Below are positions 26,719 to 53,400 of a stretch of 64,000 nucleotides of DNA, piece after piece. This stretch comes from Eledone cirrhosa (lineage: Eukaryota), in the NCBI GenBank assembly GCA_964016885.1, contig OZ024761.1, positions 29,264,001-29,328,000 of the forward strand, written 5' to 3'. The first letter of the stretch is position 1. Each line of letters opens with the position of its first letter. The translations under genes and the position numbers were made by a program. A model generated the notes under the pieces. The model was not told the origin of the DNA. It searched no databases and worked only from the letters and a program-made list of their open reading frames with translations.

Positions 26719-27061
26719 TTATCATCATCACCGTTTAACGTCTATTTTCCACACCAGCATGGGCCACACTGCACATTTACAAAGATATTTCATTTCCAGT
26801 TAATACAAAATACAAGAAAAAAAAAGCTATATACGAAATACAACTAAGAAGAGAAGCTAAGACTTAAGTATATCAATATAATGTATGGCAGGCAGTGAAC
26901 ATCAAGGTTAGCATGGGTCATACAGAAACCTGGGGACGTAGGGCCATTAACGGAGATGAATGAAGGAGTAGCAGCAGTAATTGACATGAACCCACATTTA
27001 TATAGATGCACATATATATATAAATAATATAAGATCAAAAGATGGTTAAAAGAGTTCCATG

Positions 27062-27132
27062 TATTTTATTATGCGCATTTCAAAAACAAATATCATCATA
27101 GGATGATATTTGCGTTCTCATCAGATAAAATA
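27062..27132 (-). ncRNA. Type I hammerhead ribozyme motif (PLE-type)
   Basis: TATTTTAT-CTGATGA-stem II (CAAATATCATC/GATGATATTTG)-GAAA-TGCGCA-TA-ATAAAATA: 8-bp stem I, intact core, palindromic stem III, AUA cleavage triplet. Confidence 0.8.
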
Positions 27133-27274
27133 GGGAGACATGATATGAAGCTTAAAAAACACTCGGATGAGAACGCAAATATCATCCTATGATGATATTT
27201 GTTTTTGAAATGCGCATAATAAAATACATGAAACTCTTTTAACCATCTTTTGATCTTATATTATTTATACTCAA

Positions 27275-27528
27275 TAAAGTACCAGTAATGCACTGGGTAA
27301 TTGCTGGCCTTGTGCCTAAAGTAGAAACAATTATTTATACTCAAGGGCGGTGAATTGGCAGTATCGGTAGAGTGTCGGACATGCTTTCCAGCATAGTTAT
27401 GTCCCTTTACGATCTGAGTTCAAATCCCGCCGAGGTTAACTTTGCCTTTCATCCTTACAGGGTCGATAAAATAAAGTACCAGTAATATACTGGAATAATT
27501 GCTGGCCTTGTGCCAAAAGTAGAAACAA
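27275..27528 (+). mobile_element. SINE family B: 5'-truncated copy (27275-27330) plus full copy (27345-27528)
   Basis: A box TGGCAGTATCGG, B box GAGTTCAAATCCC; ATTATTTATACTCAA occurs three times around the two copies. Confidence 0.9.
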
Positions 27529-27906
27529 TTATTTATACTCAAGTCCTATAAACTGTTGAGTGCTACTTATCCGATATTTGCATTGCTTTATTGTGCTACA
27601 ATAAAACTCACCTCCTACATATATATATATAAATACATATATTAACATACGTATATATATATACATATATATATAAATATATATAAATACATATATATAT
27701 AAATATATATAAATACATATATATATAAATATATATAAATACATATATATATATATATAAATACATATATATATAAATACATATATATATATATATAAAT
27801 ACATATATATATATATATAAATATATATATATAAATACATATATATATATATATATATAAATACATATATATATATATATAAATACATATATATATATAT
27901 ATATAA

Positions 27907-27964
<58 letters not shown>

Positions 27965-29514: not shown

Positions 29515-30945
29515 ATAAATCTACCACTGTGTGTATAAGTCTACCACTGTCTGTGTAAGTCTGTAAGTCTACCACTGTGTGTATGTCTAACACTGCATAT
29601 AAGTCTACCACTGCGTATAAGTCTACCACTGTGTATAAGTCTACCACGATGTATAAGCCTACCACTTTGTGTACAAGTCTACCACTGTGTGTATAAGTTG
29701 ACCACTGTGTATAAGTCGACCACCGTGTATAAGTCTACCACTGTATATAAGTCTACCACTGTGTGGAAGTCTACCACTGTGTATAAGTCTAACACTGCAT
29801 ATAAGTCTACCACTGTGTATAAGTCTACCACTGTGTATAAGTCTACCACTGTGTATAAGTCTACCACTGTGTATAAGTCTACCACTGTATATAAGTCTGT
29901 GTGTATAAGCCTACCACTGTGTGTATAAGTCTACCACCATGTATAAGTCTACCACTGTGTAAGTCTACCACTTTGTGTATAAGTCTGCCACTTTGTGTAC
30001 AAGTCTACCACTGCGTGTATAAGTCTACCACTGTGTATAAGTCTACCACTTTGTGTAACTTTACCACTGTGTATAAGTCTACCACTATGTGTATAAGTCT
30101 ATCACTGTATGTAAGTCTACCACTGTGTATAAGTCTACCACTGTGTATAAGTCTACCACTGTGTATAAGTCTACCACTTTGTGTAAGTTTACCACTGTGT
30201 ATAAGTCTACCACTATGTGTATAAGTCTATCACTGTATGTAAGTTTACCACTGTGTATAAGTCTACCACTGTATGTAAGTCTACCACTGTGTAAGTCTAC
30301 CACTGTGTATAAGTCTACCACTGTGTATAAGTCTACCACTGTGTATAAGTCTACCACTGTATGTAAGTCTACCACTGTGTACGTCTACCACTGTGTATAA
30401 GTCTACCACTGTGTATAAGTCTACCACTGTGTATAAGTCTACCACTGTATGTGAGTCTACCACTGTGTATAAGTCTACCACTGTATGTGAGTCTACCACT
30501 GTTTATAAGTCTACCACTGTATGTGAGTCTACCACTGTATAAGTCTACCACTGTATGTGAGTCTACCACTGTATAAGTCTACCACTGTATGTAAGTCTAC
30601 CACTGTATAAGTCTACTACTGTGTGTACGTCTACCACTGTGTATAAGTTTACCACTGTGTATAAGTCTACCACTGTATGTGAGTCTACCACTGTGTATAA
30701 GTCTACCACTGTATGTTAGTCTACCACTGTATGTAAGTCTACCATTGTATAAGTCTACTACTGTGTGTAAGTCTACCACTGTATGTAAGTCTACCACTGT
30801 ATAAGTCTACCACTATGTAAGTCTACCACTATAACTCTACCACTGTATGTATGTCTACCACTATAAGTCTACCACTGTAAGTCTACCACTATAAGTCTAC
30901 CACTGTAAGTCTACCACTGTGTGTAGGTCTACCACTGTGTATAAG
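29515..30945. repeat. 18-bp minisatellite AAGTCTACCACTGTGTAT with 14-20-bp variants
   Basis: Direct reading; VYKSTT ORF periodicity. Confidence 0.96.
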
Positions 30946-32061
30946 TTTAAGAATGTGTATCACTATTTGTGCATGATGATGATGATCTGTCCCCTAGTAA
31001 ATATACTATAAACATTTGAATTAACAAAGCTGTCTTTAGGTATGTTCTACTACTGTAAATCATTCATGGATGTTAAGAGACAACAGGATGACCAAAAAGT
31101 AAGAATCAACAACAACAACAACCACAACAACAACAACAGCAACAGCAACAAAACCCAGCACCCGATCAAAACAGCTGTTTTCTACATATAATTGACTGAC
31201 AAACCCAACAGAGAAAGCATCTAAATTTGCTATTAGATTATTCATCAGCTACTAATTGTAATCAGACTAATTAGGTGTAAAGTAAAAAGATAATATTGGG
31301 TAAAGATAATCAGCTGTGATAATACTTCCGCACTAGATTGGTTTTAACGAAAATTTAGAGAACAGTAGTTATTTTTGAGAGGGGGAAGAGGAAAAAAAGA
31401 ACAAAAATTTAATATAATTTTGTCATCTTTACATATTTATTTTTATTTTTATCTCATTTTTATTTTTCTAATTGTTTGTTGTTATTTTTTGTTTTTTGTA
31501 TTTTGTTTTTTTTTTCTTGGGGGGGGGGGGGGGGGGGGGGGGGTATGTGTTTTTTTTTCTCTTTCTATTTTCTGATAAAATGAAAGACACTCAACATGAA
31601 AACAAAAGAAAAAAATTTTTTTTAAATATATAAAATTAAATTGAAACAAACAAAAATAAAAACCTGCAATGCAGTAAAAAAAAAAAAATAAATAAAATAC
31701 AACAAAAATATAATATATAAAATAATTAATTAATAATTAATTATACAAATTTAAAAGTTTTTTTGTTTTTTTTTTCATTACACAAGACAATTATTATTAA
31801 TGTAGGATGAAAGCAAGTTCGATATTGTCATGGAAGATTGGTTAGTTAGGAATAAACGATACCAGTCATCTCTACATCAAACAATTGATGATAGGGGAAT
31901 ATGTCTAGACTTGATTCACTACTTTGCCCATCTTTATATCTACTCCGTGCCCCTCCCCGTAACAAACTCATCCAACCTGATCTAGTATATGTATACAGAG
32001 ATAGGTTTCTATTTAGTTTTGTTGTTGTTCTTTAGCCTTGTTTTGTTCTTTGTTTTTGCTC

Positions 32062-35767: not shown

Positions 35768-35800
<33 letters not shown>

Positions 35801-35837
35801 ATATAAGATCAAAAGATGGTTAAAGGAGTTCCATGTA

Positions 35838-35904
35838 TTTTATTATGCGCATTTCAAAAACAAACATCATCATGCAATAATATTTGTGTTTTCATCAGAT
35901 AAAA
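35838..35904 (-). ncRNA. Type I hammerhead ribozyme motif, second copy of the 27-kb family
   Basis: TTTTAT-CTGATGA-stem II-GAAA-TGCGCA-TA-ATAAAA; core identical to the 27-kb copy, stem II diverged. Confidence 0.75.
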
Positions 35905-36071
35905 CAGGAGAACATGATATGAAGGCTAAAAAACACTTGTGGATAGTGCAGTTTTAAATCAACATATCATAATATCTTATATTATGTATACTCCAGTCCT
36001 ACAAACTGTAGAGTGCTTCTTATCCGATATCTGCATTGCTTTATTGTACTACAATAAAACTCACCTCCTAC

Positions 36072-36104
<33 letters not shown>

Positions 36105-36860: not shown

Positions 36861-37172
36861 GACTTCTGGCATTCTTGGTCCTCGAACCACCTCTCTATTC
36901 CTTGATATCTGGATAGAGTCAGCCACCTGCAGGAGCAAGCTCCATGAAGTGAACTGGCTTCTAGTCAAATCTCACAATCATTGTAACCCCACAGTCTAAC
37001 CAGCTCTGTCAACATGTAAACAGACATTCATAGCAACATACCCAGTCAACCAGCTCTCTGAATATATAACCCCACAATCCAGCTCTCTCAATATGTTACC
37101 CCACAATCCATCCAGCCAGCTCTCTCAATATATAACCCCACAATCCAGCCAGCCAGCTCTCTCAATATGTTA

Positions 37173-38970
37173 CCCTACAGTCCAGCCAGCTCTCTCGTCA
37201 TGTGAGTCCAGTCAGTTCTCTCACCATGTAACCCTACAGTCCAGCCAGCTCTCTCGTCATGTGAGTCCAGTCAGTCCTCTCACCATGTAGTCCTACAGTC
37301 CAGCCAGCTCTCTCGTCATGTGAGTCCAGTCAGTTCTCTCACCATGTAACCCTACAGTCCAGCCAGCTCTCTCGTCATGTGAGTCCAGTCAGTTCTCTCA
37401 CCATGTAACCCTACAGTCCAGCCAGCTCTCTCGTCATGTGAGTCCAGTCAGTTCTCTCACCCTGTAACCCTACAGTCCAGCCAGCTCTCTCGTCATGTGA
37501 GTCCAGTCAGTTCTCTCACCATGTAACCCTACAGTCCAGCCAGCTCTCTCGTCATGTGAGTCCAGTCAGTCCTCTCAACATGTAGTCCTACAGTCCAGCC
37601 AGCTCTCTCGTCATGTGAGTCCAGTCAGTCCTCTCAACATGTAACCCTACAGTCCAGCCAGCTCTCTCGTCATGTGAGTCCAGTCAGTCCTCTCAACATG
37701 TAGTCCTACAGTCCAGCCAGCTCTCTCGTCATGTGAGTCCAGTCAGTCCTCTCAACATGTAGTCCTACAGTCCAGCCAGCTCTCTCGTCATGTGAGTCCA
37801 GTCAGTCCTCTCAACATGTAGTCCTACAGTCCAGCCAGCTCTCTCGTCATGTGAGTCCAGTCAGTCCTCTCAACATGTAGTCCTACAGTCCAGCCAGCTC
37901 TCTCGTCATGTGAGTCCAGTCAGTCCTCTCAACATGTAGTCCTACAGTCCAGCCAGCTCTCTCGTCATGTGAGTCCAGTCAGTCCTCTCAACATGTAGTC
38001 CTACAGTCCAGCCAGCTCTCTCGTCATGTGAGTCCAGTCAGTCCTCTCAACATGTAGTCCTACAGTCCAGCCAGCTCTCTCGTCATGTGAGTCCAGTCAG
38101 TCCTCTCAACATGTAGTCCTACAGTCCAGCCAGCTCTCTCGTCATGTGAGTCCAGTCAGTTCTCTCACCATGTAACCCTACAGTCCAGCCAGCTCTCTCG
38201 TCATGTGAGTCCAGTCAGTCCTCTCAACATGTAGTCCTACAGTCCAGCCAGCTCTCTCGTCATGTGAGTCCAGTCAGTCCTCTCAACATGTAACCCTACA
38301 GTCCAGCCAGCTCTCTCGTCATGTGAGTCCAGTCAGTCCTCTCAACATGTAGTCCTACAGTCCAGCCAGCTCTCTCGTCATGTGAGTCCAGTCAGTCCTC
38401 TCACCATGTAACCCTACAGTCCAGCCAGCTCTCTCGTCATGTGAGTCCAGTCAGTCCTCTCAACATGTAACCCTACAGTCCAGCCAGCTCTCTCGTCATG
38501 TGAGTCCAGTCAGTCCTCTCAACATGTAGTCCTACAGTCCAGCCAGCTCTCTCGTCATGTGAGTCCAGTCAGTCCTCTCACCATGTAACCCTACAGTCCA
38601 GCCAGCTCTCTCGTCATGTGAGTCCAGTCAGTCCTCTCAACATGTAACCCTACAGTCCAGCCAGCTCTCTCGTCATGTGAGTCCAGTCAGTCCTCTCAAC
38701 ATGTAACCCTACAGTCCAGCCAGCTCTCTCGTCATGTGAGTCCAGTCAGTCCTCTCAACATGTAGTCCTACAGTCCAGCCAGCTCTCTCGTCATGTGAGT
38801 CCAGTCAGTCCTCTCACCATGTAACCCTACAGTCCAGCCAGCTCTCTCGTCATGTGAGTCCAGTCAGTCCTCTCAACATGTAGTCCTACAGTCCAGCCAG
38901 CTCTCTCGTCATGTGAGTCCAGTCAGTCCTCTCACCATGTAACCCTACAGTCCAGCCAGCCAGCTCTCTC
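37173..38970. repeat. 59-bp satellite, ~30 copies
   Basis: CCTACAGTCCAGCCAGCTCTCTCGTCATGTGAGTCCAGTCAGTCCTCTCAACATGTAGT. Confidence 0.97.
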
Positions 38971-44384: not shown

Positions 44385-46630
44385 TTTGGAACATAACTTA
44401 ACATACGTTCTAAACATTATCCCCCATAAAATCAAGGGCAGTTCCAGACATATGCTTGGAACATAACTTAACATAGGTTTTAACCATTATCCCCCATAAA
44501 ACAAAGGCAGTTCCAGACAGGTGCTTGGAACATAACTTAACATTGGTTATAACCATTATCCCCCATAAAACCAAGGGCACTTCCAGACAGGTGCTTGTAA
44601 CATAACTTAACATAGTTTCTAACCATTATCCCCCATAAAACCAAGGGCAGTTCCAGACAGGTGCTTGGAACATAACTTAACATAGGTTCTAACCACTATC
44701 CCCCATAAAACCAAGGGCAGTTCCAGACAGGTGCTTGGAACATAACTTAACATAGGTTCTAACCACTATCCCCCATAAAACCAAGGGCAGTTCCAGACAG
44801 GTGCTTGGAACATGTGTCTGGAACATAACTTAACATAGGTTCTAACCACTATCCCCCATAAAACCAAGGGCAGTTCCAGACAGGTGCTTGGAACATGTGT
44901 CTGGAACATAACTTAACATAGGTTCTAACCACTATCCCCCATAAAACCAAGGGCAGTTCCAGACAGGTGCTTGGAACATGTGTCTGGAACATAACTTAAC
45001 ATAGGTTCTAACCACTATCCCCCATAAAACCAAGGGCAGTTCCAGACAGGTGCTTGGAACATGTGTCTGGAACATAACTTAACATAGGTTCTAACCACTA
45101 TCCCCCAGAAAACCAAGGGCAGTTCCAGACAGGTGCTTGGAACATGTGTCTGGAACATAACTTAACATAGGTTCTAACCACTATCCCCCATAAAACCAAG
45201 GGCAGTTCCAGACAGGTGCTTGGAACATGTGTCTGGAACATAACTTAACATAGGTTCTAACCACTATCCCCCATAAAACCAAGGGCAGTTCCAGACAGGT
45301 GCTTGGAACATGTGTCTGGAACATAACTTAACATAGGTTCTAACCACTATCCCCCATAAAACCAAGGGCAGTTCCAGACAGGTGCTTGGAACATGTGTCT
45401 GGAACATAACTTAACATAGGTTCTAACCACTATCCCCCATAAAACCAAGGGCAGTTCCAGACAGGTGCTTGGAACATGTGTCTGGAACATAACTTAACAT
45501 AGGTTCTAACCACTATCCCCCATAAAACCAAGGGCAGTTCCAGACAGGTGCTTGGAACATGTGTCTGGAACATAACTTAACATAGGTTCTAACCACTATC
45601 CCCCATAAAACCAAGGGCAGTTCCAGACAGGTGCTTGGAACATGTGTCTGGAACATAACTTAACATAGGTTCTAACCACTATCCCCCATAAAACCAAGGG
45701 CAGTTCCAGACAGGTGCTTGGAACATGTGTCTGGAACATAACTTAACATAGGTTCTAACCACTATCCCCCATAAAACCAAGGGCAGTTCCAGACAGGTGC
45801 TTGGAACATGTGTCTGGAACATAACTTAACATAGGTTCTAACCACTATCCCCCAGAAAACCAAGGGCAGTTCCAGACAGGTGCTTGGAACATGTGTCTGG
45901 AACATAACTTAACATAGGTTCTAACCACTATCCCCCAGAAAACCAAGGGCAGTTCCAGACAGGTGCTTGGAACATGTGTCTGGAACATAACTTAACATAG
46001 GTTCTAACCACTATCCCCCATAAAACCAAGGGCAGTTCCAGACAGGTGCTTGGAACATGTGTCTGGAACATAACTTAACATAGGTTCTAACCACTATCCC
46101 CCAGAAAACCAAGGGCAGTTCCAGACAGGTGCTTGGAACATGTGTCTGGAACATAACTTAACATAGGTTCTAACCACTATCCCCCAGAAAACCAAGGGCA
46201 GTTCCAGACAGGTGCTTGGAACATGTGTCTGGAACATAACTTAACATAGGTTCTAACCACTATCCCCCAGAAAACCAAGGGCAGTTCCAGACAGGTGCTT
46301 GGAACATGTGTCTGGAACATAACTTAACATAGGTTCTAACCACTATCCCCCATAAAACCAAGGGCAGTTCCAGACAGGTGCTTGGAACATGTGTCTGGAA
46401 CATAACTTAACATAGGTTCTAACCACTATCCCCCAGAAAACCAAGGGCAGTTCCAGACAGGTGCTTGGAACATGTGTCTGGAACATAACTTAACATAGGT
46501 TCTAACCACTATCCCCCAGAAAACCAAGGGCAGTTCCAGACAGGTGCTTGGAACATGTGTCTGGAACATAACTTAACATAGGTTCTAACCACTATCCCCC
46601 AGAAAACCAAGGGCAGTTCCAGACAGGTTG
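44385..46630. repeat. Satellite array: ~70-bp units, then ~22 homogeneous 83-bp units
   Basis: GGAACATAAC starts at 44667 and 44737 (70 bp apart), then 44820, 44903...46563 (83 bp apart). Confidence 0.96.
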
Positions 46631-52374: not shown

Positions 52375-53400
52375 AGGAAAGACTTAATAAAAACCTTCGC
52401 TAGTTTTAATCTTAAAATTACCATTGACACTAACCTTTCTAATGTTAATTTTCTAGATATAAACCTAGATCTGCCTACTGCTTCTTATAAACCATACCAT
52501 AAACCTAATGAAAATTTAAAATATATAAATAAAGGCTCTTGCCATCCTCCTATAGTTTTTTAAAATCTTATCCCTAATATTAGCCGTAGGATCTCCACCC
52601 TCTCTTCCTCAGAAGCTATTTTCAATAAGGCGTCCCCCTACTATAATAAAGCCCTTCATAATACCGGATTTAGCGAACTGATTAAGTACATACCCAACAA
52701 TACTAACTCCTTTAAACATAATAATAGGAAAAGAAAAATAATCTGGTTCACACCCCCCAACTCGTTAGCAGTTAAAACTAATGTAGGCAAAAAATTCCTA
52801 GAGCTCTTAGATAAACATTTCCCTAGAACACATAGATACTATAAGATCTTCAATAGAAACTGTGTCAAAATCAGCTACTCCTGCGGTCCCCCTATTAAAT
52901 CTTATATCCTCAATAAGAAAATACCCAGAGAACATCAAAATTGCTCCTGTAGAGTCAAAAGTGAATGCCCATTACAAGGTAAATGCAACACCAAAGCCAT
53001 TGTATATGCAGCTAAAGTGACAACCACCAGCAACAACCTACCAGCCACCAGTGAACGATATGTGGGTATGACACAAGACAAATTCAAAACGCGTTATTAC
53101 TCACATGTCGCATCTTTCCGACATCCTGAAAAAAGATTTACAACAGCTCTGGCTAGCAGAATATGGGATTTGAAAGACCAAGGTATCCAATATAAATCAG
53201 ATTGGTCAATTTTGAACCAATCTAAAGAATATGCAAGAGGAACAAAAAGATGCGTACTCTGCATAAGTGAAAAATATTGGATTTTACAGAACCTTAAATC
53301 ACCAAAAACCTGCCTAAATGCAAAAACAGAAATGTTCACCAGTTGCCCACACATGAAATCACACTTGCTTTCCAACTCATATAAATTAACTCACTTTAAG
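52375..53400 (+). mobile_element. Penelope-like element (Neptune/Nematis-type), 5'-truncated: end of RT, linker, GIY-YIG endonuclease; one in-frame stop
   Basis: VNFLDINLDL..YKPYHKPN..YINKGSCHPP, RKIIWFTPP..VKTNVGKKFL..DKHFP..KIFNRNCVKISYSC, CSC..CPLQGKC..IVY..YVGMT..FKTRYYSH..CVLCISEK..LN; TAA at 52561-52563. Confidence 0.9.

What the first reader, a model, noticed from the sequence alone, without database searches (positions are those of the whole stretch)
27019..27620. Best hammerhead sits in a ~104-bp-arm hairpin with PLE-like inverted-pLTR-plus-tail architecture
Seen: arms 27019-27122 and 27166-27269 differ at only one base that I can find. The minus strand reads TATTTTAT-CTGATGA-11-bp stem II-GAAA-TGCGCA-TA-ATAAAATA. 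The plus-strand arm begins mid-core (GATGA) and alone continues into a ~90-bp tail ending in (TA)n. The palindromic stem III (ATGCGCAT) resembles minimal PLE hammerheads that are thought to work as dimers. Inference: a young insertion with a potentially active ribozyme.
Basis: partly seen in the sequence, partly recalled or inferred. Interest (0 to 1): 0.75.

Follow-up and report, generated by a model that had tools for sequence, protein, structure and literature searches.

The report
Truncated Hydra-clade Penelope end pair
The hairpin and its self-cutting-RNA (hammerhead) motif are real, but they are the ordinary head-to-head leftover of an abundant Penelope-type jumping gene, and at this spot the motif is predicted to be locked up by its own mirror-image copy, so it is likely inactive here.

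Summary
Observation largely confirmed; identity ordinary. The arms 27019-27122 and 27166-27269 differ at 1 of 104 bases, and the minus strand carries a complete type I hammerhead (27132-27062) with an 8-nt palindromic stem III. The 'tail' does not follow the right arm directly: about 270 bp of SINE DNA, bounded by three copies of a 15-nt target, lies between them. Genome searches tie both arms to a ~3.7-kb element (RT plus C-terminal GIY-YIG, pLTR at both ends) with the Hydra-clade motifs DKT, CxCx5C and CxxC/CxH. It differs from the published Hydra-1_Obim. Copies end at two sites about 85 nt apart, in (TA)n or (CA)n, and 38 of 40 two-armed insertions pair one tail-less with one tailed end (20 expected). 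That sharpens a known PLE pattern and likely reflects two priming events. The locus is young but not exceptional. Folding favours a dimeric hammerhead, but a read-through transcript buries it in the 104-bp duplex (73.5 kcal/mol penalty). The inversion junction was not seen in short-read contigs. The scan has noted the same pattern on other DNA. Interest low.

The parts
27012..27019 (.). Left (TA)n target remnant; the element end is blurred into it
   Evidence: family ends fall in microsatellites
27019..27163 (-). 5'-truncated, tail-less pLTR copy (element positions about -38 to +106, C3 of the hammerhead = +1); ends at site A
   Evidence: 98.6% identical over 145 nt to a natural pLTR copy, L108; end class
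27062..27132 (-). Type I hammerhead motif: stem I 8 bp, core CUGAUGA (27124-27118), 16-position stem II with G10.1-U11.1, GAAA, palindromic AUGCGCAU (27078-27071), H17 = A at 27070
   Evidence: core intact in 116 of 140 distinct copies
27164..27165 (.). Two-base inversion junction (CG); each base fits one of the two arms
27166..27274 (+). 5'-truncated pLTR copy that starts inside the hammerhead core (+3) and so has no whole ribozyme; its last 15 nt are the SINE target
27275..27344 (+). 5'-truncated SINE piece plus a copy of the 15-nt target (27330-27344)
27345..27542 (+). Near-full SINE copy plus a third copy of the 15-nt target (27528-27542); closest genomic relatives 97-99% identical
27543..27620 (+). 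Remainder of the ~85-nt PLE tail, ending at site B; in full-length copies this is the 5' untranslated DNA before the ORF
27619..27964 (.). Right (TA)n-rich microsatellite target

Best explanation
This locus is a 5'-truncated, head-to-head insertion of a Hydra-clade Penelope-like retrotransposon into a (TA)n tract, later interrupted by SINE DNA, and it likely arose when the element's RT-endonuclease cut the target and primed two separate cDNAs, one at each of the family's two fixed start sites about 85 nt apart, whose short ends were then joined. Shown here: family membership by sequence, the parent's pLTR-ORF-pLTR layout, the two end sites, the one-tail-per-insertion pairing, the SINE interruption. 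Inferred: two primings (from the anatomy and the in vitro work on Poseidon_Ac), and joining by short microhomology or end-joining. The hammerhead is the family's standard pLTR motif. It is predicted to fold only as a double hammerhead, for example between the two pLTRs of a full-length transcript; at this locus it is a passenger, predicted to be masked in the arm-arm duplex.
For: Arm and tail continue 5' through an AT-rich UTR of about 1.0-1.1 kb into a GIY-YIG ORF in the same orientation. L091 holds pLTR-tail-ORF(715-aa open frame)-UTR-pLTR-tail, with cores 3,669 nt apart. The ORF has YRDD, SDKT, CNCPVRTKC, CNLC and CLH, and aligns at 36-40% to 11 database proteins with RWK/RWR/RWI and DKT/DKS motifs. 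Two of those hit Pfam GIY-YIG and one RVT_1. The predicted fold matches reverse transcriptases, TERT at ranks 2-3. Of 193 alignments, 77 end at +96..+107, 70 at +187..+192, 32 run on into the ORF and 14 end elsewhere. 38 of 40 two-armed units pair site A with site B (20 expected, p 7e-10). In 24 of 38 such units, this one included, each arm holds sequence the other lacks, so neither can be a fold-back copy of the other. Double-hammerhead energy -40.5 against 2 x -15.1 kcal/mol for monomers, monomer stem III probability 0.0; read-through penalty 73.5 kcal/mol. Published basis: PMC8557442 (section 11, Fig. 2 legend), PMC3846280, PMC11167929 (two internal RT start sites define the tail; both strands cut and extended), PMC4209133.
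Against: The inversion junction is not covered by any listed short-read contig in runs X1-X4 (130 pieces not shown, and the tool says a hole proves nothing). The family ORF has RWI, not RWK, and hits no Pfam family itself. No tree with reference PLE clades was built, so clade membership rests on motifs and on likeness to database proteins. In 10 of 38 units the tailed arm also reaches further 5', which a fold-back route could explain, and 4 are about equal; some switch points are imprecise. Loci were the best hits of my queries, so they lean towards young, similar copies. The folding numbers are nearest-neighbour predictions without tertiary contacts.
Confidence: 0.88

Rival explanations
1. 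The two arms came from one template by self-priming or fold-back (for example on an antisense RNA, as proposed for rotifer Penelope), not from two primings at the cut target.
For: Arms of one unit are more alike (mean 3.0%) than arms of different units (5.6%), and agree at subfamily site +92 in 28 of 31 units. 17 of 101 5' ends fall at -70..-65, at a short palindromic CATATG, giving palindromic junctions. Proposed in PMC3846280 (passages).
Against: At this locus and in 24 of 38 units each arm has sequence missing from the other. The A+B pairing and the in vitro two-site initiation (PMC11167929) are simpler under two primings. Like arms are also expected if both cDNAs come from RNA of one source copy.
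Confidence: 0.2
2. The hammerhead at this locus is an active, transcribed ribozyme (from a start inside the spacer, or by co-transcriptional folding), or the hairpin serves as a dsRNA or editing substrate for the host.
For: The left-arm core is intact and differs from the column majority at 1 of 122 sites. A transcript starting in the spacer needs only 5.0 kcal/mol to reach the hammerhead fold.
Against: No second whole hammerhead lies in the locus to form the dimer, and read-through RNA is fully masked. Single minimal PLE hammerheads showed no detectable cleavage and dimers low cleavage (PMC4209133); the Poseidon_Ac motif cleaved only with protein (PMC11167929). Rare variants hit the core about as often as the rest (1.6% against 2.0%), as expected of neutral decay after insertion.
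Confidence: 0.08
3. The palindrome is a fold-back read or assembly artefact.
For: No listed contig spans the junction in X1-X4, and no listed piece spans the whole stretch.
Against: The flanks beyond the arms are not mirrored. Each arm carries correct family sequence that the other lacks. The left flank-arm joint is in a 332-nt short-read contig at depth 7 (possibly the assembly's own sample). The same layout with other junctions occurs in 40 units on many contigs.
Confidence: 0.04
4. It is a MITE-like or retrozyme-like non-autonomous unit with fixed terminal repeats.
For: Long inverted arms, high copy number, and a modest hotspot of 5' ends (17 of 101).
Against: Junctions and arm lengths vary continuously from about 40 nt to over 3 kb and run into the ORF. 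There is no tandem array of hammerhead units here, which retrozymes require by the definition in 10.64898/2026.07.22.740005 (part 1).
Confidence: 0.03

Closest known systems
Hydra clade of C-terminal EN+ Penelope-like elements (Craig et al. 2021, PMC8557442; section 11, passages and supplement part 2 read)
   Same: RT plus C-terminal GIY-YIG, DKT, CxCx5C linker, CxxC and CxH around the conserved E and N, hammerhead in the pLTR, (TA)n targets, inverted 5'-truncated copy with a one-sided tail.
   Different: RWI instead of RWK; unit about 3.7 kb against 'generally <3 kb', owing to a ~1.1-kb AT-rich UTR and an Asn-rich linker of about 60 residues; stem II of 16 positions against 3-7 bp in the paper's Hydra hammerhead sheet.
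Hydra-1_Obim (Octopus bimaculoides; supplement of PMC8557442)
   Same: The only cephalopod Hydra family in that sheet; (TA)n insertion; non-G-C closing pair of stem II (A-U) and a palindromic short stem III.
   Different: Different hammerhead sequence and ORF start, by eye (no alignment computed); described without a pLTR, whereas this family has clear pLTRs.
Poseidon_Ac (PAc) of the green anole (Frangieh et al. 2024, PMC11167929; parts 1-2 of 4 read)
   Same: Two internal RT start sites whose interval is the genomic tail; AT-rich targets; hammerhead near the pLTR-ORF junction.
   Different: Tail here about 85 nt against the usual 30-40, and it lies wholly before the ATG (ending 78 nt upstream), whereas PAc initiates inside the ORF. 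No enzyme test here.
Minimal PLE hammerheads (Cervera and de la Pena 2014, PMC4209133; parts 1-2 of 4 read)
   Same: Type I topology, palindromic short stem III, long stem II, dispersed single copies, opposite-strand pairs 100-700 bp apart.
   Different: G10.1-U11.1 (U11.1 in 138 of 140 copies) instead of the highly conserved G10.1-C11.1; stem I 8 bp; no unpaired base between 9 and 10.1.

Membership tests
EN+ Penelope-like element | Single ORF with RT and GIY-YIG endonuclease | tested here: met
   715-aa open frame with YRDD and a YFG..F..R endonuclease region; homologues hit RVT_1 and GIY-YIG; fold matches RTs and TERT. No copy with an unbroken frame from the ATG (about 800 aa) among the 150 listed; longest 715 aa.
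EN+ Penelope-like element | Direct-repeat pLTRs flanking the ORF | tested here: met
   L091: pLTR-tail-ORF-UTR-pLTR-tail
EN+ Penelope-like element | Inverted 5'-truncated copy and a tail at one end | tested here: met
   38 of 40 two-armed units, this locus included
EN+ Penelope-like element | Hammerhead motif in the pLTR, sense to the ORF | tested here: met
Hydra clade | DKG modified to DKT | tested here: met
   SDKTN
Hydra clade | Linker CxCx5C | tested here: met
   CNCPVRTKC
Hydra clade | [quoted passage not shown] | tested here: met
   CNLC-LAE ... IN-RRTDLFSL-CLH
Hydra clade | N-terminal RWK motif | tested here: inconclusive
   RWI at the matching place in nearly all copies; among 11 database relatives 8 have RWK, 2 RWR and 1 RWI
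Hydra clade | Insertion into (TA)n | tested here: met
   Most ends abut (TA)n; 11 at +188 abut (CA)n
Hydra clade | Position in an RT phylogeny with reference PLE clades | not tested
Type I hammerhead ribozyme | Core C3-A9, G12-A14, A15.1-U16.1, H17 and three stems | tested here: met
   stem III only as an intermolecular helix
Type I hammerhead ribozyme | G10.1-C11.1 closing pair of stem II | tested here: not met
   G-U or A-U in the family; published Hydra motifs also show G-U or A-U there (Penelope-13_HM, Penelope-17_HM, Hydra-1_oBim), so it is not obligatory in this clade
Type I hammerhead ribozyme | Self-cleavage 3' of NUH | not testable with these tools
   needs an in vitro assay or stranded RNA ends
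Non-LTR retrozyme | Tandem non-coding units, each with a hammerhead | tested here: not met
   No such array at the locus; arms continue into a coding element

The most novel reading that the evidence does not exclude
PLE integration is obligately asymmetric: a dimeric RT-endonuclease primes one cDNA at each side of the break, always one at the upstream and one at the downstream start site (38 of 40 here), each site marked by a small hairpin just behind it, while the hammerhead is kept under RNA-level constraint in source copies but plays no part in setting the ends. This Hydra family, with an 85-nt tail lying before the ATG, would be a clean substrate to test that.
Probability: 0.55. Interest if true: 0.45.

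Novelty: new member of a known kind. Interest (0 to 1): 0.22.

Why it matters
The locus itself is ordinary: one of at least hundreds of truncated copies. Its family is a Hydra-clade PLE with clear pLTRs that is not in the Hydra sheet of PMC8557442, and it gives numbers for a pattern published in words: one tailed and one tail-less end per insertion. That bears on how these telomerase-related elements integrate, which is still open. It also shows that an intact hammerhead core in a PLE remnant is no sign of activity in place, because the inverted arm masks it.

Tried and rejected
Rfam: no hammerhead family among the 15 matches for 26900-27620; the whole-window scan listed 150 of 376 matches, nearly all microRNA-like hits to microsatellites. 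The repeat finder on the whole window was swamped by (TA)n. Pfam and PDB-sequence searches with the family ORF gave nothing. Sequencing runs: no RNA holder listed, which is no evidence on expression. Contigs and RAD reads could not span the palindrome. Idea that the two arms come from different subfamilies: rejected as a rule (concordance at +65 and +92); the discordance at +25 is probably due to my query carrying that variant. Idea that U11.1 or the ~85-nt tail is unique: rejected or doubtful, since published Hydra motifs have G-U or A-U there, and several Hydra consensus sequences run about 90-130 nt past the listed hammerhead while others stop within about 20 nt (my arithmetic on the sheet). 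Selection on the core: 0 of 11 core sites against 20 of 111 other sites carry a variant in 5 or more copies, too few to be significant. No absolute age was attempted: the organism and rate are not established. The literature search for the effect of a G10.1-U11.1 pair gave no measurement that I read.

Full report
Observation. The arms 27019-27122 and 27166-27269 are inverted repeats that differ at 1 of 104 bases, around a 43-nt non-palindromic spacer, and the mirror stops at both outer ends. The minus strand carries a full type I hammerhead: stem I of 8 bp, CUGAUGA at 27124-27118, a 16-position stem II (11 contiguous Watson-Crick pairs, a C x U mismatch, and G10.1-U11.1 at the base), GAAA, the palindrome AUGCGCAU, and H17 = A at 27070. 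The 71-nt motif folds better than all 200 shuffles (z -3.05). Rfam has no hammerhead match here. The SINE's best relatives are 97-99% identical. Whether this was one SINE event or two is not settled; partial-plus-full tandems of this SINE occur elsewhere.

What it belongs to. The arm had 624 first-look candidates in the 3.0-Gb genome, 40 scored, with matches of 95-100%. A second, more diverged copy lies in the window at 35793-36073. Walking 5' from the arm leads through an AT-rich UTR of about 1.0-1.1 kb to a GIY-YIG ORF in the same orientation. L091 holds the whole layout, pLTR-tail-ORF-UTR-pLTR-tail, with 3,669 nt between cores. The ORF has YRDD, SDKT, CNCPVRTKC, CNLC and CLH, with RWI near the start. 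These match the Hydra-clade diagnostics of PMC8557442 (section 11), except RWI for RWK. It has 203 database relatives at E<=1e-20 among 7,999 scored candidates, 120 listed at 29-40% identity; I aligned 11 of them. Two hit Pfam GIY-YIG and one RVT_1; the family ORF itself hits nothing. A model (mean pLDDT 67) matches reverse transcriptases, with TERT at ranks 2 and 3. The one cephalopod Hydra family in that paper's supplement, Hydra-1_Obim, has another hammerhead and another ORF start, judged by eye. Among the 150 best endonuclease hits none has an unbroken frame of full length; the longest is 715 aa.

Two ends, one of each. Of 193 de-duplicated alignments to a natural pLTR (a few duplicates may remain), 77 end at +96..+107 (site A), 70 at +187..+192 (site B), 32 run on towards the ORF, and 14 end elsewhere; most ends abut (TA)n, some (CA)n. 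Among 40 two-armed units with both ends in the DNA I held, 38 pair A with B, one is AA and one BB; independence predicts 20 (p 7e-10). These loci were best hits of five queries, not a random sample. In 24 of the 38 A+B units the tail-less arm reaches further 5', in 10 the tailed arm does, and 4 are about equal. In the first group, which includes this locus, each arm has sequence that the other lacks. So neither is a fold-back copy of the other, and a fold-back read cannot explain the locus. The pattern is published in words: an inverted 5'-truncated copy and a tail often at one end only (PMC8557442, Fig. 2 legend; PMC3846280, passages). PMC11167929 (parts 1-2) showed in vitro that Poseidon_Ac cuts and extends both strands and starts at two internal sites that delimit the tail. 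Two primings, one per side of the break, is therefore my inferred mechanism. The tail here is about 85 nt and ends 78 nt before the ATG.

Age. In 31 of 40 units the arms overlapped enough to compare (9 dropped for short overlap). Mean divergence is 3.0% within units and 5.6% between units; four units have no difference, and this locus ranks 12th of 31 with 2/101 when the junction base is counted. The left arm differs from the column majority at 1 of 122 sites, as low as 21 of 140 copies, in a set biased towards it. So it is fairly young, not exceptional, and older than its SINE insert.

The ribozyme. The monomer does not form stem III (probability 0.0). The double hammerhead scores -40.5 kcal/mol against -15.1 for each monomer, which supports the dimer idea. 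At the locus, only the left arm has a whole motif. A minus-strand read-through RNA folds into the arm-arm duplex, and forcing the hammerhead costs 73.5 kcal/mol; a transcript starting in the spacer would pay 5.0. The core is intact in 116 of 140 distinct copies, and U11.1 is nearly fixed (138 of 140). All 8 stem I and II variants seen in 4 or more copies keep the pair on the ribozyme strand (nominal p 0.008, but they are linked in subfamilies, so this is not independent evidence). Six of the 8 are A/G changes. A>G is 19.5 per 1,000 in stems against 4.9 outside, an excess that vanishes among rare variants. This fits constraint on the stems in source copies, or A-to-I editing written back by the RT; I cannot separate the two. 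Rare variants hit core and flanks alike (1.6% and 2.0%), as expected of neutral decay once inserted. PMC4209133 (parts 1-2) reports no cleavage for a single minimal PLE hammerhead and low cleavage for dimers; PMC11167929 found that the PAc motif needs protein and is dispensable for insertion in vitro.

Reads. A 332-nt contig of run X1 at depth 7 joins the left flank to the left arm; that run may be the assembly's own sample. No listed contig spans the inversion junction in X1-X4 (130 pieces not shown). The tool warns that a hole proves nothing, and long perfect hairpins are known to sequence poorly (my knowledge). The junction therefore remains unconfirmed by reads.

Leads from earlier scan notes, checked here. 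A bulged hairpin (4+4 or 5+4 bp) starts a few bases behind site A in most of 94 copies (-5.6 kcal/mol); the one behind site B is weaker and less well defined (28 copies, about -3.7). 5' ends cluster at -70..-65 in 17 of 101 cases, 14 of them in the 30 loci, and not at stem II. The scan has reported Hydra end pairs and long-plus-short pairing on other DNA; a look-up by sequence found nothing for this family.

Literature coverage. Searches. Read: PMC4209133 parts 1-2 of 4; PMC11167929 parts 1-2 of 4; PMC8557442 passages, section 11, supplement part 2 of 59 and search hits in it; 10.64898/2026.07.22.740005 part 1 of 5 (its supplements are closed); passages of PMC3846280, PMC13282606 and PMC2837043; PMC4824008 as a search listing only. 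I found no description of this family in what I read, but Repbase and Dfam could not be searched, so it may already be named there.

Verdict. A real feature and a textbook PLE insertion: a new member of the Hydra clade. The dimer-type hammerhead is the family's standard motif and is likely silent at this site. Interest 0.22.

Noticed in passing
window 35793-36073: Second insertion of the same family: a 175-nt tail-less minus arm with a whole hammerhead (A10.1-U11.1, 11 differences from the majority in 122 nt) and a 100-nt tailed plus arm; an older subfamily.
   Followed up: partly
window 52375-53390: 5'-truncated ORF of another Hydra-type PLE family (41% and 38% identical to this family's ORF in two stretches), starting at a (TA)n tract; its 3' end and hammerhead were not traced.
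   Followed up: partly
window 23690-23990: Head-to-head inverted pair of another repeat with CTGACGA...GAAA hammerhead-like words on both strands, plus a further partial copy across a (TA)n tract; probably another PLE family.
   Followed up: no
window 2430-2530: Degenerate hammerhead-like stretch (TTTTAT-CTGAAGA-GAACAC ... ATAATAAAAT) that resembles this family's motif but lacks GAAA.
   Followed up: no
window 2653-2834 and 16872-17250: The same SINE family occurs as an inverted pair (2653-2834) and as a tandem (16872-17250); many more copies lie in the window.
   Followed up: no
L091:4560-4890 (residues about 491-570 of the 715-aa frame): Asn/Ser-rich low-confidence insert between RT thumb and the CxCx5C linker, absent from 10 of the 11 aligned relatives; recalls the N-rich inserts of rotifer Penelope (PMC3846280).
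   Followed up: partly
L006, L015, L027, L121: Both arms start at about the same place (three of them at -69..-68, at a CATATG palindrome), giving nearly perfect palindromic insertions.
   Followed up: partly
window 44736-46628, 37159-38960, 29564-30946, 5075-6897: Long, homogeneous minisatellite arrays (83, 59, 18 and 26 nt units; up to 99% matches).
   Followed up: no
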